A stretch of 33,508 bases of DNA from a virus (taxonomy: Duplodnaviria; Heunggongvirae; Uroviricota; Caudoviricetes). Made by a program: the position numbers and the translations under genes. A model generated the notes under the pieces. The model was not told where the DNA came from. It saw only the letters and a program-made list of their open reading frames with translations, and did not search any database. Location of the stretch: IMG/VR virus record IMGVR_UViG_648276643_000011; one strand, written 5' to 3'. Of this stretch, positions 1 through 10,450 are shown in pieces (position 1 is the stretch's first letter; every line of letters starts with the position of its first letter).

Positions 1-1002
1 TTACCCTCTATTGTCAAAAGGGTTCAATTCAACAGCAGCCTCTAAATGACCTGGAGCAAAATGCGCATAACGCATAGTCATTTTTATATCGCTATGCCCC
101 AGTATTTTTTGCAACACAAGAATATTTCCGCCCCGCATCATAAAATGACTGGCAAACGTGTGACGTAGCACATGAGTTAATTGCCCATCAGGAAGCTCGA
201 TCTTCGCTCTCTTAATTGCAGCGTCAAAAGCCTCATAACATGGTGAAAATAGCGCTCCTCGTTTTTTAGGAAGCATAGCTTGCAATTGAGGTGAAATCGG
301 TACAGTGCGGTTCTTCTTTCCTTTAGTTTTAACAAATGTGATTCGACCGGGCAGTACTTGAGATTGCTTTAATCCTTCTGCTTCACTCCACCGAGCACCA
401 GTCGCAAGCCCAATACGGACAACAACCCCCAAATCTTTATTCCGTGACTCATCACACGCAATCAGAAGGCGTTCAATCTCATCTACATACAGAAACGCCA
501 GTTCCTTTTCTTCCTCACGAAACTTGCGAATACCAGTCAGGGGGTTTTCACCAGACCACTCCCCAAGGCGCTTCAGTTCGGCAAAAACAGCATGTAGATA
601 TGACTGCTCGCGATTAACGGTTGCTTCACTAAGTTTTTTCTTCCCCTTGGGATTCCATTCTCCTGATAGCCTTCTTTCCCGATAAGTAGCAAACATATTT
701 TTGTCAAACTGAGAAGCAAATGGATCTCCCAGCCTGGAACAAATCGCCTCAAGTTTGACTTTGCGCTCTGCACCAGAGGACAAGGTTTTACCGTACATCT
801 CAAACCAACGAGCAATCAACTCAGAAAGACGAGGACCAGAACCATCTTGAAACTCGTCTCCAACTCTACTATTCATTAAACGGCGCTCATAAGAGAGCGC
901 CTCACTTTTTGTCGCAAACTGTTTACGAATGCGTTTTCCCGATGCCCCGTAGGGATAACATTCGCAAAGCCATTTACCTGATGGAATCTTACGAACCGAC
1001 AT
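1..1002 (-). CDS. int: Phage integrase, tyrosine recombinase (P2 Int-like)
   Basis: 333 aa ORF; C-terminal catalytic region with HxxR and terminal Tyr context (LRHTFASHFMMRGG ... MTMRYAHF) typical of tyrosine recombinases; alignable by eye to P2 Int; first gene at prophage end. Confidence 0.9.
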   Translation of the reverse strand: MSVRKIPSGKWLCECYPYGASGKRIRKQFATKSEALSYERRLMNSRVGDEFQDGSGPRLSELIARWFEMYGKTLSSGAERKVKLEAICSRLGDPFASQFDKNMFATYRERRLSGEWNPKGKKKLSEATVNREQSYLHAVFAELKRLGEWSGENPLTGIRKFREEEKELAFLYVDEIERLLIACDESRNKDLGVVVRIGLATGARWSEAEGLKQSQVLPGRITFVKTKGKKNRTVPISPQLQAMLPKKRGALFSPCYEAFDAAIKRAKIELPDGQLTHVLRHTFASHFMMRGGNILVLQKILGHSDIKMTMRYAHFAPGHLEAAVELNPFDNRG

Positions 1003-1007
1003 TTTAG

Positions 1008-1355
1008 TTACTTATCACATAAATCAAATGCAGCCTTAGTGACATCCCCCAGACTCTTTTTTAACCCTGGGGCGGCATCATTATCTAGCCAAAATGGATT
1101 ATTGTTATCTAACGGTAACGCACCAAATGTTTTACCTTTTATTCGAGCCAAACCTGTAAGTGCATATAACTTATTATCGTCAAAATTCATCACATAAGGA
1201 TTACCATCAAGACACTGTAATTGAACCTCATCAGTATTAAATGGCCATACCCCATTGAAACTCTCACGTTCAATAGTTTTAAAAGGCATTGCGACGGCGG
1301 AAAAAGAAAACATAGATAAAAAAGTAACTAATAGTTGAACCTTTTTTACTTTCAT
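1008..1355 (-). CDS. Secreted/periplasmic protein of unknown function, possibly DUF2511/YebY-like
   Basis: 115 aa ORF with N-terminal signal peptide (MKVKKVQLLVTFLSMFSFSAVA), strong RBS (GAGGT) upstream; pattern FN..EV.L.C..GN.YV...GK...LC recalled from YebY-type proteins (from memory, unverified). Moderately AT-rich. Confidence 0.55.
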   Translation of the reverse strand: MKVKKVQLLVTFLSMFSFSAVAMPFKTIERESFNGVWPFNTDEVQLQCLDGNPYVMNFDDNKLYALTGLARIKGKTFGALPLDNNNPFWLDNDAAPGLKKSLGDVTKAAFDLCDK

Positions 1356-1384
1356 ATCATTACCTCAATTTAGCTCAAGTAAGA

Positions 1385-2035
1385 TTACAAATTAAAAAAC
1401 GCCCTAGAAATGACACCGCCTACCAAAACCCCTACGCAGATAAAGAATATTATTTCTTTTGGATAAAGTCGGATTAATTCTGAAGCACGAAGTCGGACTT
1501 CTGGTAAGGTCGAACTCTCTGTGTGGCTTGATGCCGATTGTTGCTCTAACCACGACAATGCAGACTGTAACTGAGAACGAGTAAGATCGTTTAAACGTCC
1601 TGTACCGAAATTGATATGGCAATACCGCAGAAGTTTTTGTCGAAGTCCACAGTCTTCACTGTTACGTAGTAATAAACTTACAAGAGCCTTACAGGCATCA
1701 TGATCTTTACATCGCTCAAGCATTGCATGCAGAAAACTCTCCGCTGTTTTATATTGATTTACTGTCATATCATCAATACCAGCTACACCAATCTCCGCAT
1801 GTACTTTTTGCCAAATAATAAACGCTTCAGTATTGCTAGCTTCTGCAATAGCAGCAACCAAGCTATTTAGCTCCTTACGCTGAGCCTTAAGCAAAGGGCG
1901 ATCGTCATCATCATTATTCGAAGGGATTGCGATATTGACGGTATGAGAACCATCATATCGCTCTATCTGAATATTCTTTTCGTGAAAATCACGCCCAGCA
2001 ACGCGATTGTTTGAACCGTTTGAGTTGACGGCCAT
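1385..2035 (-). CDS. Hypothetical C-terminally membrane-anchored protein co-oriented with the repressor
   Basis: 216 aa ORF with strong RBS (GGGAGG) 7 nt upstream; single predicted TM helix at extreme C-terminus (IIFFICVGVLVGGVISRAFF); N-terminus carries motif SNNRVAGRDF that also ends the upstream repressor. Confidence 0.6.
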   Translation of the reverse strand: MAVNSNGSNNRVAGRDFHEKNIQIERYDGSHTVNIAIPSNNDDDDRPLLKAQRKELNSLVAAIAEASNTEAFIIWQKVHAEIGVAGIDDMTVNQYKTAESFLHAMLERCKDHDACKALVSLLLRNSEDCGLRQKLLRYCHINFGTGRLNDLTRSQLQSALSWLEQQSASSHTESSTLPEVRLRASELIRLYPKEIIFFICVGVLVGGVISRAFFNL

Positions 2036-2050
2036 GTCACCTCCCTACTA

Positions 2051-2455
2051 TCACCTACCCTTAGTTTCGTTATAGTCACGACCAGCGATACGGTTATTAC
2101 CACCAGAAATATTTAACTCACGTCCTGATGGCTGAGTTTCCTTTTCACTGATCGCACCTTTTAAAGCCCCAATCACCGCGTTTTTCACATCTAACGAAGC
2201 TGCTCGAAAGCGAGTAATCAATTCCTGCTCATCATCGTTATAAGTTTCAGGTGAGTGAATTCCCAACACAACATACTGAACATCAAGGCCAAAACGAGAC
2301 AGCGCTGCCAAATACGCAGCATCAGGAAAGCTATCTCCTTTCTCATATCTAAGCTGAGTTAGCTTTTTGACTCCACCAATGTCGCTCATGGCAACTTGAC
2401 TAAGTCCCAATCTTTCCCTTTCCTCACGCAACCGCTGACCAATATCATTTTTCAT
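2051..2455 (-). CDS. Immunity repressor, HTH XRE-family (C/CI position)
   Basis: 134 aa; N-terminal helix-turn-helix (QRLREERERLGLSQVAMSDIGGVKKLTQLRYEKG); divergent from the early operon as the lysogeny repressor is in P2/186-like phages. Confidence 0.75.
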   Translation of the reverse strand: MKNDIGQRLREERERLGLSQVAMSDIGGVKKLTQLRYEKGDSFPDAAYLAALSRFGLDVQYVVLGIHSPETYNDDEQELITRFRAASLDVKNAVIGALKGAISEKETQPSGRELNISGGNNRIAGRDYNETKGR

Positions 2456-2530
2456 ACAAAAACCTTGACAGGTATCTTTTTTGATACCAAAATGATTTCA
2501 CGAGCTATTAGATGATCACAATATACCACT
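2456..2530. promoter_or_regulatory. Divergent switch region with TTGACA -35 element and operator-like palindrome GGTATC-N6-GATACC
   Basis: TTGACA at 2465-2470 immediately followed by perfect inverted repeat GGTATC (2471-2476) / GATACC (2483-2488); lies between the divergently transcribed repressor and early genes. Confidence 0.5.
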
Positions 2531-2737
2531 ATGAAACAAGTTCTTCACGATACCAGATCACGCATTCCGCGTAACACCGCCACAGGTCCAAGACTGGCAC
2601 TTCGGCTGTCCCTCGAGGAGCGAGCCGTCATTGATGAAATGGCAGCTAAAGAACAACGCTCATCCTCTAACATGGCGCGCATGATCTTCCTTCGCGGCCT
2701 AGAGCTAACCCAGAAAGAACAAAACAAATCTTCCTGA
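2531..2737 (+). CDS. Small early regulator (Cro/Cox position), possibly ribbon-helix-helix
   Basis: 68 aa ORF, first gene divergent from the repressor; weak RBS; RLSLEERAVIDEMAAKEQRSS resembles RHH/MobC-like DNA-binding proteins (weak recollection). Confidence 0.4.
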   Translation: MKQVLHDTRSRIPRNTATGPRLALRLSLEERAVIDEMAAKEQRSSSNMARMIFLRGLELTQKEQNKSS

Positions 2738-2753
2738 TCAGGAGGCTAGTGGG

Positions 2754-2957
2754 ATGTCAGGTATAACCATCAATATCAATGTGAATGCCCCCTATGTATC
2801 CCTGCAGAAATATGCAGAGATAACAGGTATCCCTCTTAATACATGCAAAAAGATGTTGGCTGACGGTCGAATTATTATCCGCCCCAAACGCGCCAAAATG
2901 GAAAAGCCTGAAGTAAACCTTGTGGCGATGTTAAAAGACGCTTTGGCTAACAGCTAA
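2754..2957 (+). CDS. Excisionase/Cox-like HTH DNA-binding protein
   Basis: 67 aa; strong RBS AGGAGG; HTH-like segment YVSLQKYAEITGIPLNTCKKMLADGRI typical of AlpA/Xis/Cox family. Confidence 0.5.
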   Translation: MSGITININVNAPYVSLQKYAEITGIPLNTCKKMLADGRIIIRPKRAKMEKPEVNLVAMLKDALANS

Positions 2958-6275: not shown

Positions 6276-9098
6276 ATGACGGCAGAGTACATCAGGGACT
6301 GGCAACAACCGCGCCACGCAGTGGGGCGTGAAGGAACGGGGATCCCCGCTCCTGAATCTGCGCTTTCCTCCTGGCTGGATGCCTACCGGGCAGAGAACGA
6401 GCGCCGCCAGGAAATGGCTGATGCGGCGTTCTCCGCCACACCGCTGGGCAACCTGATTAATAAAAGCCTGGACGCACAGGAAAAACAGGACAAAGCCATC
6501 ACACTGGCAGGAGACGCCAGAAAACAGGCACGCGGCGCGGTGGATGAAGCCATGGCCTCGCTGCGCCTGCTGCCGTCCTATTTGCGCGATCCACTTATTC
6601 GTCACCTCTCCTTCCTGCGCAAAAAACAGGAAGCCGATCGCCGGAAAGGCAAAAAGAGCTGGCAGGCAGAACGCTATGCACGCGGAACCCTGCGCAAGAT
6701 ATTCGATCGCATAAACCGCACCGACAGCCGCTGGCTGACACCGGGTTATCGCTCCCTTGCCGGACGCGAACGCCTGGACGATTTGCTTTACCTGCCGCAG
6801 CTCAACAAGCACCAGATACAGACGCTGGCTACCATGACGGCGGCGATGTTCAGCAGCACCTTCGAAAAACTCTGCGATGGTTTTGGCGCGACCGATGGCG
6901 AGCTGACCATGGATGTAACCCTGAAGGCGTATCAGATGCTGGCCCGCATGGCGTTACACCTGCACGCCATGCCTCCACATTATGACGCACTGACAACAGA
7001 CAAAGACCGGAGGAACGAACCGGACACGGAGCTGCTGCCAGGCGCAATCCTTCGCCTGACCTGTGCGGAATGGTGGAAACGCAAACTGTGGCTGTTACGT
7101 TGTGAGTGGCGGGAAGAACAACTTCGCGCCGCCTGTCTGGTTTCCAGAAAAACATCGCCCTATCTGAGCCAGGACGCGTTAAGCGAGTTTCGCGCACAGC
7201 GCGAGAAAACACGCGATTTCCTGAAAAGTTTCATGCTGGAAAACGAAGACGGGTTCACGATTGATCTCGAGACAGTGTATTACGCGGGAGTAAGTAACCC
7301 GGTTCACCGTAAGGCAGAAATGATGGCCACCATGAAGGGGCTGGAACTTCTGGCCGAAGCCCGTGGCGACAAAGCGGTGTTTCTGACTGTCACCTGCCCG
7401 TCAAAATACCACGCCACAACAGAGAACGGTCATCCGAATCCCAAATGGAACGGGGCCACCATGCGCGACTCCAGCGATTACCTGGTTAACACGTTTTTTG
7501 CGGCGGTCCGCAAGAAACTGAACCGCGACGGCCTGCGCTGGTATGGCATCCGCACGGTGGAGCCTCACCATGACGGCACCGTGCACTGGCATATGATGGT
7601 CTTTGCTCATCCGGAAGAAATCGACACCATTGTGTCCCACACCCGTGATATTGCCATTCAGGAAGATCGTCACGAGCTGGGTGATGATATTACCCCACGC
7701 TTTAAGGCGGAGTACGTCGACGGCTCAAAAGGCACACCGACCAGCTACATCGCCACCTACATCGGGAAAAACCTGGACAGCCGTGCCGTGGATGGCATCG
7801 ACCCGAAAACGGGCAAGCCACGCGTTGACCACGAAACCGGAAAATCAATGGCCGAGAGCGTGGAACGCGCCATCGGCTGGGCGCGCCTTCACCGGGTCCG
7901 CCAGTTCCAGTTTTTTGGTATCCCCTCCCGTCAGGTGTGGCGTGAGCTGCGTCGCCTTGCCAGCCAGATGGCACGCAACCCGGAAGGCCCACAACGGCTG
8001 AAGGATGACGCAATGGATGCGGTTCTTGCTGCCGCTGATGCCGGATGTTTTGCCACCTACATAGAGAAACAGGGCGGCGTACTTGTTCCACGCAAGGACT
8101 ACCTGGTTCGCACCGCCTACGACCTCGCAGATGAACTGAATGATTACGGCGAACAGAGCGTACAGATTTACGGGATCTGGTCACCACTCATCGGGGAATC
8201 CTCTCGTGTGTGCACGCATCCGGATAACTGGAAGCTGGTAAGACGTAAACCGGAAACGGAAGACAGCGCCCGCGAAAATGGTTTTGACCTTCAGGGCGGC
8301 CCTGCCGCCCCTTGGACTCGTGGCAATAACTGTCCCCGTGTACAGGAAACGGACAACAACGGGACAGAACAGCCGGAAGAACGGCCAGCACCGTGGCCGC
8401 AGCTCCCTGACGGCGTTGAAGTGAACGAATGGATGCGCTCACTGAAACGGCACGAACGCCGGGCGCTGATGCGTTCGCTTCGTGACAAACAGGCAAAAAA
8501 CAGCAGTGATGAAATGCAGAGCTGGACACAGAGCCGCAAACAGCAGCGGCCTTTGCCTGATAACCACGAATTACTCGCTAAAGAATGGCGGGAGTCTGCT
8601 GAATCTCTCGGCCTGCATATCGGTGAACAACAGATGCAGCACCTGTTACGGGGCGGCAGTCTGTACGTTGACGGCAGCATCATTGCACCGCAGGGATTTG
8701 AAATTATACGCAAACCGGATACCCGCCCGGACAGCCGAATCACGCAGCTCTGGCAGCGCCTGAGCCGTAATCACGGCGTAAGCAGCACGGAGATCCGCCA
8801 TAACCCGGTCGCCAGCTATCTGGCACAGCTGGGGGCATCAGCCCCTGAAGCCGCCGCACGCCTGGCATCCACACTTCAGCAGGACCAGAACACCATGAAA
8901 ACACCCGTTACCGTGCTTTCTGACATGCTGCGCGCCATCCGCGACGCAGAGCACGCACAGAGAATCAGTGAAACCACTGAACGCGCCCGCCGCAAAGCAG
9001 ACCTGCTGCGGGGTGGCCTGACCAGTGGAAACAATAAACAGACAGAAACGGGACTCACGAATCCCGTAAATGAGCAAAAAACGCGCAGCGATATATGA
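6276..9098 (+). CDS. A: Replication initiation protein A (rolling-circle HUH endonuclease, P2 gpA family) with long C-terminal extension
   Basis: 940 aa; HUH-type motif VHWHMMVF and paired catalytic tyrosine motif TSYIATYIGKN as in P2 A; canonical position before the variable locus. Confidence 0.85.
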   Translation: MTAEYIRDWQQPRHAVGREGTGIPAPESALSSWLDAYRAENERRQEMADAAFSATPLGNLINKSLDAQEKQDKAITLAGDARKQARGAVDEAMASLRLLPSYLRDPLIRHLSFLRKKQEADRRKGKKSWQAERYARGTLRKIFDRINRTDSRWLTPGYRSLAGRERLDDLLYLPQLNKHQIQTLATMTAAMFSSTFEKLCDGFGATDGELTMDVTLKAYQMLARMALHLHAMPPHYDALTTDKDRRNEPDTELLPGAILRLTCAEWWKRKLWLLRCEWREEQLRAACLVSRKTSPYLSQDALSEFRAQREKTRDFLKSFMLENEDGFTIDLETVYYAGVSNPVHRKAEMMATMKGLELLAEARGDKAVFLTVTCPSKYHATTENGHPNPKWNGATMRDSSDYLVNTFFAAVRKKLNRDGLRWYGIRTVEPHHDGTVHWHMMVFAHPEEIDTIVSHTRDIAIQEDRHELGDDITPRFKAEYVDGSKGTPTSYIATYIGKNLDSRAVDGIDPKTGKPRVDHETGKSMAESVERAIGWARLHRVRQFQFFGIPSRQVWRELRRLASQMARNPEGPQRLKDDAMDAVLAAADAGCFATYIEKQGGVLVPRKDYLVRTAYDLADELNDYGEQSVQIYGIWSPLIGESSRVCTHPDNWKLVRRKPETEDSARENGFDLQGGPAAPWTRGNNCPRVQETDNNGTEQPEERPAPWPQLPDGVEVNEWMRSLKRHERRALMRSLRDKQAKNSSDEMQSWTQSRKQQRPLPDNHELLAKEWRESAESLGLHIGEQQMQHLLRGGSLYVDGSIIAPQGFEIIRKPDTRPDSRITQLWQRLSRNHGVSSTEIRHNPVASYLAQLGASAPEAAARLASTLQQDQNTMKTPVTVLSDMLRAIRDAEHAQRISETTERARRKADLLRGGLTSGNNKQTETGLTNPVNEQKTRSDI

Positions 9099-9174: not shown

Positions 9175-10134
9175 ATGAAAATTTGTATCGACGACGGCTC
9201 CACCAACATCAAGCTGGCATGGACTGAGAACGGCGAACGCCGCAACGCCATCAGCCCGAACAGCTTCAAGTCGGAATGGTCTGCGCCGTTCGGTGGCACG
9301 CAGCCCGCGAACTACATGCTTGATGGCGTGCGCTATGGTTTTGATCCTGTCAGCGATCGCTTTGTCCAGACGACCGACACGCAATACCAATACAGCGATG
9401 TGAATGTCATTGCCATTCATCACGCGCTGGTCAAATCAGGCATCACGCCACAGGAGGTGGATGTGGTTGTCACCCTGCCACTGAGCGAGTATTTCGACAC
9501 AAACGCACAGCCGGACATGGCCAACATCAACCGCAAAAAAGCGAACGTTATGCGCCCGGTGGAGTACCAGAACGGCAAAGCATTCACTATCCGTAACGTA
9601 CGGGTTATGCCTGAATCTATTCCGGCTGGCTTTAAAGCACTGGCTGACATGAGTCCGTTTGAATCCCTGCTGATTGTGGATTTAGGCGGAACCACGCTGG
9701 ATGTGGCAAAGGTTCAGGGACAACTGGCAGGTATCAGCCAGGTGTTTTGCGATCCACACGTAGGCGTTTCCCTGATGGCCGATGCAGTACTGTCGGTGAT
9801 GGCCACTAACGGTATGCGTACCAGTCACCACATCGCCAATACCATTATCGAACATCGCCATGATGAAGCTTGGCTGCGCCAGCACATCCACAATGACGCG
9901 CATTACGCCAGCCTGATGGCGGTTATTCGTGAAAAGGAAGAAACACTGAAACAACGCGTGATCCGCGCGCTGGCGGGTTTTTCGGGTTACGGGCGGGTGA
10001 TGGTTGTCGGTGGCGGAGCGGAGATTGTGGCACCCGCTATCCGCGAAGCCTGCGGGGTTAATGCGACTTTCATCGCGGACGGGGTGCCACAGTTTGCTCT
10101 GGTTAATGGGCTGTACGCAATGGACAAGGAGTAA
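9175..10134 (+). CDS. parM: ParM/StbA-family actin-like ATPase
   Basis: 319 aa; N-terminus MKICIDDGSTNIKLAW matches ParM phosphate-1 motif; further ParM-like blocks (YSDVNV.A.HHAL, MPESIPAG, LI.DLGGTTLD, GGGAE) alignable by eye to plasmid R1 ParM (from memory); RBS AAGGA. Confidence 0.8.
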   Translation: MKICIDDGSTNIKLAWTENGERRNAISPNSFKSEWSAPFGGTQPANYMLDGVRYGFDPVSDRFVQTTDTQYQYSDVNVIAIHHALVKSGITPQEVDVVVTLPLSEYFDTNAQPDMANINRKKANVMRPVEYQNGKAFTIRNVRVMPESIPAGFKALADMSPFESLLIVDLGGTTLDVAKVQGQLAGISQVFCDPHVGVSLMADAVLSVMATNGMRTSHHIANTIIEHRHDEAWLRQHIHNDAHYASLMAVIREKEETLKQRVIRALAGFSGYGRVMVVGGGAEIVAPAIREACGVNATFIADGVPQFALVNGLYAMDKE

Positions 10135-10138
10135 ACCA

Positions 10139-10450
10139 ATGACGACACCAACCAGACGGATAAGTTTCTATCTGAAGCCCGCCGCCGTCAAGAACGAAGG
10201 CGAAGCATGCGCCTGGCTGGACAGCCTTACACCAGAAGCCCGTAAAAACGGCCAACGCGTGGCTTTTCTGGCCGGGCTGGCGCTTCTGAAAATGAATCCG
10301 GCAGAGGCTTACCGACTGGCAGCATGGGCTGACGATGAGGCGTTATCAGTGACACAAACCAGGACAGAACGCCCCCTGTCACAGCCAGTACCAACCGCAC
10401 AGATAACCAGTCAGATGGCCGGAAATATCAGGGCGTTATTTCCTGAATAA
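10139..10450 (+). CDS. parR: ParR-like ribbon-helix-helix adaptor
   Basis: 103 aa starting 5 nt after the parM-like stop with RBS AAGGAG; N-terminal RRISFYLKP ... LDSLTPEARKNGQRVAFLAGLAL and C-terminal NIRALFPE resemble R1 ParR as recalled from memory. Confidence 0.6.
   Translation: MTTPTRRISFYLKPAAVKNEGEACAWLDSLTPEARKNGQRVAFLAGLALLKMNPAEAYRLAAWADDEALSVTQTRTERPLSQPVPTAQITSQMAGNIRALFPE

What the first reader, a model, noticed from the sequence alone, without database searches (positions are those of the whole stretch)
1008..2455. Repressor-linked two-gene cargo sharing a peptide motif with the repressor itself
Between the repressor and int, on the same strand, sit a C-terminally membrane-anchored 216 aa protein and a signal-peptide 115 aa protein. 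The repressor ends with GGNNRIAGRDY and the next protein begins with GSNNRVAGRDF. The underlying DNA is only about 70 percent identical over those 27 nt, which points to an old duplication kept at the peptide level rather than a recent repeat. The position mirrors lambda rexAB next to cI, i.e. genes expressed in the lysogen. The motif could be a shared recognition tag (protease, partner or oligomerisation) linking repressor status to a membrane effector.
Basis: partly seen in the sequence, partly recalled or inferred. Interest (0 to 1): 0.6.

Follow-up and report, generated by a model that had tools for sequence, protein, structure and literature searches.

The report
Phage repressor tail copied onto membrane partner
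The repressor of this P2-like E. coli prophage ends in an ~18-residue peptide that is repeated at the start of the membrane-anchored protein encoded just downstream, and the two copies change together across many P2-like and Mu-like phages, pointing to an undescribed repressor-to-membrane coupling in lysogeny control.

Summary
The repressor tail NISGGNNRIAGRDYNETK matches residues 4-21 of the next protein, NSNGSNNRVAGRDFHEKN (0/3000 shuffles). The DNA is 19/27 identical in the core, with only 6/18 third codon positions shared.

The reading as "two-gene cargo" is only partly right. The 216-aa protein has an Flk_N helical domain and a C-terminal tail anchor. It is a fixed partner of this repressor type. 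The 115-aa protein is a DUF2511/YebY-like exported protein in a swappable slot.

In about 17 independent lineages, the repressor's disordered C-tail resembles the N-terminus of the gene directly downstream. These lineages include phages B3, BcepMu and KS10. The motif differs between lineages but stays matched within each pair (permutation 0/100000). Codon use gives no sign of recent gene conversion. The partner bodies differ, but nearly all are membrane proteins, so the motif follows the repressor rather than the body.

Best explanation: the two matched peptides pair directly and dock the repressor at the inner membrane, forming a membrane-linked switch. The layout, N/G-rich and L/P/K-poor composition and pseudo-repeats resemble amyloid-signalling gene pairs such as Bab/Agp. 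No NLR is present, and amyloid formation is untested. I found no prior description.

The parts
2051..2455 (-). XRE/Cro-CI-type immunity repressor, 134 aa. HTH at residues 5-64, two further helices at 74-103, disordered tail at 105-134.
   Evidence: ORF. Pfam HTH_31/HTH_3 and PHROG transcriptional repressor families. AF2 with 31-sequence alignment: pLDDT about 90 for the HTH and <50 for residues 105-134. It is divergent from the Arc-like and Cox-like genes, as in P2-type immunity regions.
2060..2113 (-). Repressor C-terminal tail motif, residues 115-132: NISGGNNRIAGRDYNETK.
   Evidence: Conserved in orthologous repressors. Aligns to the partner N-terminus in hhalign, E 3e-6.
2036..2053 (-). Junction: TGA TAG TAG (three consecutive in-frame stops), then GGAGGTG Shine-Dalgarno and a 4-nt spacer before the ATG. 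The two ORFs are in the same frame.
   Evidence: Read from the sequence and the six-frame translation '...KGR***GGDM'. The triple stop argues against a read-through fusion. Gaps of -4 to +34 nt in relatives suggest translational coupling.
1385..2035 (-). Partner protein, 216 aa: N-terminal motif, acidic linker, Flk_N helical domain, C-terminal tail anchor.
   Evidence: ORF. phrog_5825, E 4e-103, unknown function. NCBIfam Flk PRK10715 partial hit at residues 37-166, E 8.6e-16. Precomputed Pfam PF27202 = Flk_N. AF2 model.
1973..2026 (-). Partner N-terminal motif, residues 4-21: NSNGSNNRVAGRDFHEKN. It is a copy of the repressor tail.
   Evidence: S5 G7 N10 R11 G14 D16 are invariant in 20 orthologues. 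The motif is kept in distant family members. AF2 pLDDT <50, i.e. disordered as a monomer.
1925..1972 (-). Degenerate second pseudo-repeat of the motif, residues 22-37: IQIERYDGSHTVNIAI. This is an inference.
   Evidence: Relatives show a clearer second copy about 10 residues after the first ('...AGRDFNESTVQVDQLIGRDIVNI', 'NRTAGRNYYEVKNANNVAGRDVIHVNL'). In the window it is only weakly recognisable.
1520..1927 (-). Flk_N-type all-helical cytoplasmic domain, residues 37-172.
   Evidence: NCBIfam Flk hit. Pfam PF27202 Flk_N. AF2 helices 50-172 with pLDDT about 80-88. No significant structural neighbour was found; there is only a weak ORF6C/Sak-C-like 60-residue module.
1391..1462 (-). C-terminal transmembrane tail anchor, residues 192-215.
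   Evidence: AF2 helix 192-215. The hydrophobic C-terminus is conserved in the family with G202 and G206 invariant. Flk is an experimentally established tail-anchored protein (PMC6794478).
1008..1355 (-). Swappable cargo gene: 115-aa exported DUF2511/YebY-like protein. It is not part of the conserved pair.
   Evidence: Pfam DUF2511, 28.4 bits against cut-off 21. phrog_2950. PDB 7n0j YebY, E 0.0027. The slot is occupied by unrelated genes in L003-L009.
1..1002 (-). Tyrosine integrase, the last gene of the leftward (lysogenic) gene string.
   Evidence: Pfam Int_N and Phage_integrase.
2531..2957 (+). Divergent early genes: Arc-like RHH protein (2531-2737) and Cox-like protein (2754-2957).
   Evidence: phrog_3431 Arc-like repressor. 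Annotation of the 97%-identical phage 520873.
2465..2493 (+). Promoter-like site for the early operon (TTGACA-17-CAAAAT). It contains the palindrome GGTATC-N6-GATACC (2471-2488), a candidate operator.
   Evidence: Consensus matches only; function is inferred.

Best explanation
The repressor and the 216-aa tail-anchored protein form a conserved two-gene immunity module. The membrane protein's cytoplasmic N-terminus is a paralogous copy of the repressor's disordered C-terminal tail. I infer that the two matched peptides bind each other directly by like-with-like beta-strand (cross-beta or short beta-solenoid) pairing. That would recruit repressor molecules to the inner membrane.

The partner would then act as a membrane-located modulator of the repressor, either an anti-repressor or a repressor anchor. 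Its state (envelope or periplasmic signal, oligomerisation, or turnover) would set how much repressor is free to hold the prophage silent. Each phage's partner would be specific for its own repressor.

Shown here: the motif match, its conservation, its lineage-specific co-variation, gene adjacency, membrane anchoring, and disorder of both peptides. Inferred: physical binding, membrane recruitment, and the effect on repression. The direction of the effect (inactivation or stabilisation) is not determined. The 115-aa DUF2511 protein is an unrelated periplasmic moron in a variable slot.
For: 1. The match is far beyond chance in the window (0/3000 shuffles) and between the two family profiles (hhalign E 3e-6).

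2. In all 8 usable genome loci the partner gene follows a tail-bearing repressor directly. The same holds in IMG/VR loci and in phages B3, BcepMu and KS10.

3. The motif differs by lineage but stays matched within pairs. Examples: 'QVFHGAVSGGVAARDIIN'|'QEFQGNVDGGVAGRDIVN', 'GQQFNGPVGTVTSGDVVN'|'NQQFHDRVHQVAAGDIKN', 'QVFHGDINGQFAGNKIVN'|'QEFNGTAQGQFSSRDIIN', 'VVHGDVGQTVKGNV'|'IIHGDVGIVAEGDV'. Eleven lineages scored 0/2000 in composition-preserving shuffles. The cognate pairing sum over 23 cluster representatives was never reached in 100000 permutations.

4. The similarity is maintained at the protein level. Identical codons occur at 179 of 413 identical-residue positions, against 159 expected from codon usage.

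5. The motif follows the repressor, not the partner body. The AGRD class sits on Flk_N plus tail anchor, on Zn-ribbon plus 2 TM (L055, L091), and on a 2-TM body (B3 ORF20). Flk_N bodies carry at least four different motif classes.

6. Nearly all partners are membrane proteins with the motif on the cytoplasmic side.

7. Repressors without a tail have no such partner (L083, L089, L094).

8. Two motif classes coexist in one host. Pectobacterium has P0159 and P0171; P. aeruginosa has B3 and L014. This argues for pair-intrinsic recognition.

9. Both peptides are predicted disordered in the monomers, as expected for segments that fold on binding.
Against: No fused HTH-Flk_N protein was found among the 136 representative relatives, so there is no Rosetta-stone support. 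The partner appears co-expressed and translationally coupled with the repressor. Constitutive tight sequestration would therefore defeat repression, so the interaction must be conditional, weak or positive. There are exceptions: L085 has a tail but no partner; KS10 gp12 has the motif but no obvious TM; L075 and L082 are not significant by ungapped scoring. A phage-encoded third factor that reads both peptides would give the same co-variation.
Confidence: 0.5

Rival explanations
1. Amyloid-signalling (prion-like templating) module of the Bab/Agp or HET-S/NWD2 type. One protein nucleates a cross-beta fold in its terminal motif and templates the matching motif of the other. Either the repressor acts as sensor and switches on a membrane-damaging effector (exclusion or abortive infection), or clustering of the membrane protein converts repressor tails into an inactive aggregate and so induces the prophage.
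For: The gene layout matches: adjacent collinear genes, with the motif at the C-terminus of one product and the N-terminus of the next, about 18-25 residues long. Composition is N 4.1x and G 2.4x enriched, and L 0.09x, P 0.12x, K 0.32x depleted. That is close to the bias reported for BASS motifs and beta-helical proteins (10.1101/2020.01.06.895854). The partner carries two or more pseudo-repeats against one in the repressor, as described for some BASS and HET-s pairs. The motif is combined modularly with different bodies. Amyloid signalling has been shown experimentally in E. coli for Bab/Agp, which lies in a prophage defence island (10.1101/2024.11.07.622273).
Against: Neither an NLR/STAND receptor nor a Bell/HeLo-type effector is present. 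Q is not enriched (0.84x). The AGRD class is rather charged and short. Amyloid propensity could not be computed or tested here. A heritable aggregated state of a repressor would be hard to reconcile with stable lysogeny unless it is tightly gated.
Confidence: 0.2
2. Shared docking tag. Both peptides are recognised by the same third factor, which may be a protease or adaptor (for example FtsH, ClpXP or Lon) or a phage-encoded antirepressor. The membrane protein would then compete with the repressor for that factor, or be co-regulated with it, much as lambda CIII protects CII from FtsH.
For: Both peptides are terminal and disordered, as degrons and docking tags usually are. A phage-encoded reader within the same immunity module would also produce pair-wise co-variation.
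Against: Different motif classes coexist in the same host genus or species, which is awkward for a host reader. No third conserved gene accompanies the pair in both the P2-like and Mu-like contexts. No other protein in the window carries the motif.
Confidence: 0.15
3. One reading: a rexAB-like lysogenic-conversion cargo pair that happens to sit next to the repressor, with the shared peptide being a historical remnant of a duplication or gene fission and having little present function.
For: The position between repressor and int is a known moron site. The 115-aa DUF2511 gene does behave as swappable cargo.
Against: The motif is conserved and co-varies across P2-like and Mu-like phages of Enterobacterales, Pseudomonas, Burkholderia and Gilliamella. 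Third codon positions have diverged. The partner never separates from the tail-bearing repressor in the loci examined. There is no homology to Rex or any PADLOC defence model.
Confidence: 0.07

Closest known systems
Amyloid-signalling gene pairs (BASS/FASS motifs: Bell-NLR pairs in bacteria, HET-S/NWD2 in fungi, Bab/Agp in E. coli)
   Same: Two adjacent collinear genes whose products share a short terminal motif, C-terminal in one and N-terminal in the other. The motif is N/G-rich and L/P/K-poor, is predicted disordered, sometimes occurs as pseudo-repeats, and is attached modularly to different domains. One partner is membrane-directed. Bab/Agp also lies in an E. coli prophage.
   Different: There is no NLR/STAND or TPR sensor and no Bell/HeLo effector. 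The C-terminal motif sits on a DNA-binding phage repressor. The N-terminal motif sits on a small membrane-anchored protein. The module lies in the immunity region, not in a defence island. Fibril formation is untested, and membership in BASS1-11 could not be tested.
Flk (RflH), the tail-anchored flagellar export regulator of Salmonella and E. coli
   Same: It shares the Flk_N helical domain (NCBIfam hit E 8.6e-16; Pfam PF27202) and the C-terminal tail anchor with the bulk of the protein facing the cytoplasm.
   Different: Flk is about 330 aa with two matched stretches, is chromosomal, and the one Flk-like sequence read (P0284) lacks the N-terminal repressor-like motif. The phage protein scores 58 bits against a family cut-off of 353, so it is not an Flk orthologue. 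Many partners in other lineages have no Flk_N domain at all.
Membrane sequestration of transcription regulators (Mlc-PtsG, sigmaE-RseA, sigma28-FlgM; comparison from general knowledge)
   Same: A cytoplasmic regulator would be held or released by a membrane-anchored partner whose state reports on the envelope. Some partners here have a periplasmic Cys-rich domain that could sense a signal.
   Different: The known cases use folded domain-domain interfaces, not a duplicated terminal peptide. None involves a phage immunity repressor. This is an analogy of logic only.
Phage antirepressors (186 Tum, P22 Ant, Gifsy antirepressors, CTX-phi RstC)
   Same: They are small phage-encoded proteins that bind a non-cleavable repressor and alter its activity. 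The repressor here also lacks an S24 peptidase domain.
   Different: Known antirepressors are soluble, are transcribed separately (often under LexA control) and do not copy part of the repressor. Here the partner is membrane-bound and appears co-transcribed with the repressor. The only LexA-box-like site in the window lies inside the replication gene at 8330.
Lambda rexA/rexB next to cI
   Same: Genes downstream of the repressor in the lysogenic transcript; one product is a membrane protein.
   Different: No sequence or domain relationship. RexAB share no peptide with CI. Here the downstream gene co-evolves with the repressor tail.

Membership tests
Amyloid-signalling motif gene pair (BASS/FASS) | Adjacent, collinear genes | tested here: met
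   Same strand, with a gap of 15 nt in the window and -4 to +34 nt in most relatives. One pair has an 88-aa gene inserted between the two (L101).
Amyloid-signalling motif gene pair (BASS/FASS) | Shared motif of about 15-25 residues at the C-terminus of one product and the N-terminus of the other | tested here: met
   17-20 aligned residues in most pairs. Significant in at least 13 independent lineages at 3/2000 shuffles or fewer.
Amyloid-signalling motif gene pair (BASS/FASS) | Composition enriched in N, Q, G, V, I and depleted in K, P, L; beta propensity | tested here: inconclusive
   N 4.1x, G 2.4x, V 1.2x, I 1.1x; K 0.32x, P 0.12x, L 0.09x. However Q is 0.84x and D and R are enriched. Beta or amyloid propensity was not computed, because ArchCandy is not available.
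Amyloid-signalling motif gene pair (BASS/FASS) | One partner is an NLR/STAND-type receptor (or another large sensor) carrying the N-terminal motif | tested here: not met
   The partner with the N-terminal motif is a 117-329-aa membrane protein. Neither protein gave NACHT, NB-ARC or TPR hits.
Amyloid-signalling motif gene pair (BASS/FASS) | Motif forms amyloid fibrils or prion-like foci and templates its partner | not testable with these tools
   Needs peptide fibrillation assays (ThT, Congo red, EM) and GFP-foci assays as done for Bab/Agp.
Flk (flagella biosynthesis regulator, NCBIfam PRK10715) | Full-length match above the family cut-off (two Flk_N-type repeats, about 330 aa) | tested here: not met
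   58.1 bits against cut-off 353. Only residues 37-166 match profile positions 20-149 of 339. Flk-like representatives are 320-350 aa with two matched stretches.
Flk (flagella biosynthesis regulator, NCBIfam PRK10715) | Flk_N domain plus C-terminal tail anchor | tested here: met
   PF27202 Flk_N is precomputed for the family. TM helix at 192-215.
P2-type immunity repressor (XRE/Cro-CI HTH) | HTH_XRE DNA-binding domain; gene divergent from the cox-type early operon and upstream of int | tested here: met
   Repressor activity itself is inferred from homology and position.
DUF2511 / YebY | Pfam PF10709 above the gathering score; exported | tested here: met
   28.4 bits against 21. YebY structure 7n0j, E 0.0027. 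N-terminal hydrophobic signal-like segment. YebY function is itself unclear (PMC8689200).
Known anti-phage defence systems (PADLOC, incl. RexAB) | Match to a defence-protein model | tested here: not met
   No PADLOC hit for the 216-aa or 115-aa protein. Only generic HTH hits for the repressor.

The most novel reading that the evidence does not exclude
Temperate phages of at least two unrelated architectures (P2-like and Mu-like) control their master repressor through a prion-like, self-templating peptide shared with a membrane sensor. Clustering or activation of the membrane protein would convert repressor tails into a cross-beta assembly, or the reverse. This would give an SOS-independent, envelope-linked and immunity-specific switch between lysogeny and induction or exclusion. 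It would be the first case of amyloid-type signalling acting on a transcription factor in bacteria.
Probability: 0.2. Interest if true: 0.95.

Novelty: new variant of a known kind. Interest (0 to 1): 0.8.

Why it matters
How short XRE-type prophage repressors that lack a self-cleavage domain are switched off, other than by SOS-controlled antirepressors, is poorly understood. A membrane-anchored partner that carries a copy of the repressor's own tail would link lysogeny control to the cell envelope.

The module is present in about 10% of complete E. coli genomes (521/5426), including O157:H7. It is also present in the laboratory phages B3, BcepMu and KS10, so it can be tested directly. Such a link could explain SOS-independent induction, or immunity-specific exclusion.

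The rule itself is simple: the C-terminal 20 residues of one protein resemble the N-terminal 20 residues of the next gene's product. It is the signature used to discover amyloid-signalling pairs. Finding it on a transcription factor with small membrane proteins extends that logic beyond NLR/effector immunity. It also suggests a genome-mining screen for further matched-terminus pairs in mobile elements.

Tried and rejected
1. Read-through or frameshift fusion of the two ORFs. They are in the same frame but separated by TGA TAG TAG. In relatives the gap is -4 to +34 nt in varying frames. Rejected.

2. Recent DNA repeat or gene conversion. Third codon positions match in 6/18. Identical codons number 179 against 159 expected. 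Rejected.

3. Known defence system. PADLOC gave nothing.

4. Structural neighbours of the partner. Foldseek against PDB and BFVD gave nothing with E below 0.018, only a weak ORF6C/Sak-C-like helical module. Uninformative.

5. Rosetta-stone fusion. No HTH-Flk_N protein was found among the 136 hits in 1.84 billion representatives. The only N-terminal fusion seen has a different N-terminal region that I read, without testing, as Rha-like (P0352).

6. Structure prediction of the two ORFs submitted as one stretch. No multimer prediction is available here.

7. LexA control. The only CTGT-N8-ACAG site lies inside the replication gene at 8330, and 28 of 100 shuffles gave at least one site.

8. Deposited phage genomes. 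By tblastn the partner family is found only in phage 520873, where it is split into three aligned pieces and unannotated, and weakly in Ralstonia phages. The Pseudomonas L014 partner has no match.

9. Literature. Searches for a prior description found none. The BASS papers do not mention HTH, repressor or phage.

10. L075 and L082 looked similar by eye but are not significant by ungapped scoring, so they are not claimed.

11. The helix-type similarity in L100 is weak (59/2000) and is treated only as a lead.
Full report
**What is in the window.** All four genes lie on the minus strand:

- a 134-aa XRE-type repressor, 2455..2051
- a 216-aa protein, 2035..1385
- a 115-aa protein, 1355..1008
- a tyrosine integrase, 1002..1

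Arc-like and Cox-like genes are transcribed divergently from 2531. The window is a P88-like (Xuanwuvirus, Peduoviridae) prophage, 97% identical over 3.4 kb to Escherichia phage 520873. The repressor-to-DUF2511 segment occurs in 521 of 5426 complete E. coli genomes, among them many O157:H7 strains. No terminator-like site separates the four genes on their strand.

**Checking the observation.**

- The repressor ends NISGGNNRIAGRDYNETKGR*. The next protein starts MAVNSNGSNNRVAGRDFHEKN. The match runs over 18 residues, 10 of them identical.
- The best ungapped BLOSUM62 score between the two proteins is 62. In 3000 shuffles the mean was 27.4, the sd 4.0 and the maximum 52.
Only 6 of 18 third codon positions agree.
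- The motif occurs nowhere else in the six-frame translation of the window.
- The two ORFs are in the same frame. They are separated by TGA TAG TAG and then GGAGGTG(N4)ATG, so read-through fusion is excluded and translational coupling is likely.

**The individual proteins.**

- Repressor. AF2 gives a five-helix HTH (5-64), two more helices (74-103) and a disordered tail (105-134, pLDDT <50) that contains the motif.
- 216-aa protein. Residues 1-41 are disordered and include the motif. A helical domain spans 50-172 and a C-terminal TM helix spans 192-215. It belongs to phrog_5825, of unknown function. It matches part of the NCBIfam Flk model (residues 37-166, E 8.6e-16, far below the family cut-off). 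It carries the Pfam domain PF27202, named Flk_N. Flk is an established tail-anchored E. coli protein (PMC6794478). Foldseek found no significant structural neighbour. The family is small: 136 hits among 1.84 billion representative proteins.
- 115-aa protein. It is an exported DUF2511/YebY-like protein (PMC8689200).

**The motif is conserved in orthologues of both proteins.** In 20 partner orthologues down to 58% identity, S5, G7, N10, R11, G14 and D16 are invariant. Repressors from Serratia, Yersinia, Klebsiella, Salmonella, Dickeya, Pectobacterium and Hafnia end in 'NVSGxGNRVAGRDYNENKK'. A profile-profile comparison of the two families finds exactly one match, tail against N-terminus (25 columns, probability 88%, E 3e-6).

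**Pair versus cargo.** In the 8 usable genome loci recovered with the partner family, the partner gene always directly follows a tail-bearing repressor in a P2-type immunity region. These loci come from Rosenbergiella, Mixta, Izhakiella, Enterobacter, Symbiopectobacterium, Hafnia and Arsenophonus. The gene between the partner and int varies:

- DUF2511 in the window and in L002
- a BRCT-domain protein in Enterobacter soli
- unrelated 87-244-aa ORFs elsewhere
- nothing in Arsenophonus

So the 216-aa protein belongs with the repressor, and the 115-aa gene sits in a moron slot.

**The general rule and its co-variation.** More distant repressor homologues occur in Mu-like transposable phages, identified by an rve transposase, a DUF3102 protein, a Ner-like HTH protein and a downstream holin and transglycosylase. 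Their tails differ from the window's, and in each case the tail resembles the N-terminus of the gene immediately downstream:

| Source | Repressor tail | Partner N-terminus |
|---|---|---|
| Brenneria | QVFHGDINGQFAGNKIVN | QEFNGTAQGQFSSRDIIN |
| P. aeruginosa (L014) | GQQFNGPVGTVTSGDVVN | NQQFHDRVHQVAAGDIKN |
| Gilliamella | QVSAENIYN | QVAANNIYN |
| L073 | QVFHGAVSGGVAARDIIN | QEFQGNVDGGVAGRDIVN |
| L076 | FHGSVGQVVEGSITN | FHGDVGQVAGEKIVN |
| L101 | VVHGDVGQTVKGNV | IIHGDVGIVAEGDV |
| Phage B3 (ORF18 / ORF20) | ISVTGDGNRTAGRDFHE | IEVTGSNNIVAGRDFIE |
| BcepMu (gp17 / gp18) | QEQVFHGSVGQAV | GKQEFNKPVGQAI |
| KS10 (gp13 / gp12) | VASGSGITQVGS | MSASGFGIIQVAG |

Statistics:

- Composition-preserving shuffles gave 0/2000 for eleven lineages and at most 3/2000 for two more. 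The values were 14/2000 for L060 and BcepMu, and 37/2000 for L078.
- L075 and L082 are not significant and are not claimed.
- Over 23 tail-cluster representatives, including negative cases, the cognate pairing sum was never reached in 100000 permutations.
- Identical codons at identical residues number 179 of 413, against 159 expected. The similarity is therefore held at the protein level and not by recent gene conversion.
- Repressors of the same family that lack the tail have no such partner (L083, L089, L094).

**The motif follows the repressor, not the partner body.** The partner bodies differ:

- Flk_N plus tail anchor
- a 151-aa two-TM protein (Gilliamella)
- 117-118-aa Zn-ribbon proteins with two TM helices (L055, L091)
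- 160-195-aa two-TM proteins (L076, B3 ORF20)
- 260-329-aa single-pass proteins with a periplasmic Cys-rich domain (BcepMu gp18, L073, L074)

The AGRD-type motif occurs on three of these body types. Flk_N bodies carry at least four motif classes. Almost all partners are membrane proteins with the motif on the cytoplasmic side; KS10 gp12 is an apparent exception.

Two motif classes coexist in one host genus or species: Pectobacterium (P0159 and P0171) and P. aeruginosa (B3 and L014).

**Mechanism.** The most economical reading is that the two matched, intrinsically disordered peptides bind each other, which would place the repressor at the inner membrane. The partner would then be a membrane-located, immunity-specific modulator of the repressor. 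Binding, localisation and the direction of the effect are inferences. The partner appears co-expressed with the repressor, so the interaction must be conditional, weak or positive.

The layout closely parallels amyloid-signalling gene pairs. The parallels are:

- adjacent genes with matching C-terminal and N-terminal motifs
- N/G-rich, L/P/K-poor composition (compared)
- pseudo-repeats in one partner
- modular attachment of the motif to different bodies

This mechanism has been demonstrated in E. coli for Bab/Agp. However, no NLR-type sensor or Bell-type effector is present, Q is not enriched, and fibril formation is untested. I therefore treat prion-like templating as a rival and sub-case with probability about 0.2.

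Other rivals are a shared docking tag or degron read by a third factor (0.15) and incidental rexAB-like cargo (0.07).

**Novelty.** I found no description of this tail/N-terminus relationship. The KS10 genome paper lists gp12 as having no significant match. The BASS papers do not mention repressors, HTH proteins or phages. Other searches were empty. Relative to amyloid-signalling pairs this is a new variant: different proteins, in the immunity region, acting on a transcription factor. As a component of phage immunity regions it appears undescribed.

**Verdict.**

- Observation: confirmed.
The link between repressor and membrane protein holds; the 'two-gene cargo' and rexAB-like readings do not.
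- Interest: high (0.8). The feature is widespread, statistically solid, unexplained by known systems, and directly testable in laboratory phages.

Noticed in passing
window 9175-10450 (+): A ParM/StbA-type actin-like segregation ATPase (319 aa; StbA_N E 4e-82) is followed by a Plasmid_stab_B (StbB/ParR-like) protein. They sit after the replication gene A of this integrating P2-like prophage. It is a plasmid-partition cassette in a prophage.
   Followed up: partly
window 2036-2053 (-): Three consecutive in-frame stop codons (TGA TAG TAG) end the repressor gene just before the partner's Shine-Dalgarno sequence, and the two ORFs are in the same frame. This looks like insurance against read-through.
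   Followed up: yes
window 2471-2488: A perfect palindrome GGTATC-N6-GATACC lies inside the promoter-like site of the early operon (2465-2493). A 12-nt direct repeat ATACCAAAATGA/ATACCACTATGA is at 2484 and 2523. These are candidate operators.
   Followed up: partly
L001 (NC_049344.1, phage 520873) 1039-3485: In the deposited phage record the integrase is annotated as two CDS. The 216-aa and DUF2511 genes are not annotated, and the 216-aa gene aligns in three tblastn pieces. The cause is probably sequencing frameshifts or decay in that record.
   Followed up: partly
L100 1607-2758 and L099: In this variant lineage the repressor lacks the G/N-rich tail but has a C-terminal helical region ('DAKRLARIVELLE'). 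The Flk_N partner has an extra N-terminal helix 'ADERLAKLAGLLNE' ahead of its beta-type motif. The similarity is weak (59/2000 shuffles). It hints that the partner may copy whatever self-association element the repressor uses.
   Followed up: partly
L097 2163-2945 (BcepMu gp18); L073, L074, L082 partners; P0367: Several single-pass partners end in a conserved periplasmic Cys-containing segment ('C.F.G.PY..GS.I.N..APD..C'), which could be a sensor domain. It matches no Pfam family.
   Followed up: no
L009 3069-3966 (Arsenophonus triatominarum): There are two tandem repressor-like ORFs, one full-length (128 aa) and one truncated copy (89 aa). Both end in '...QRIAGRDYNE(T/R)K', upstream of the partner gene. 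This looks like a duplicated or decaying immunity region in an endosymbiont.
   Followed up: no
L084 2501-2878: The repressor's 3' end is frameshifted and has lost the tail, while the downstream partner still carries 'NRAAGRDFHE'. This is a likely pseudogene or an assembly error.
   Followed up: no
L005 4635-5513 (Enterobacter soli): The variable slot between partner and integrase holds a 292-aa BRCT-domain protein (BRCT E 2e-8). Other loci hold unrelated ORFs with no Pfam family. The slot behaves as a moron or defence hotspot.
   Followed up: partly
P0352 (270 aa): A protein with a different N-terminal region, which I read as Rha-like without testing it, is fused to a segment matching the first helices of Flk_N. 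PHROG antirepressor (Ant) families also hit residues 49-108 weakly. The Flk_N core may therefore share a helical module with phage Rha/Ant/ORF6C C-terminal domains.
   Followed up: partly
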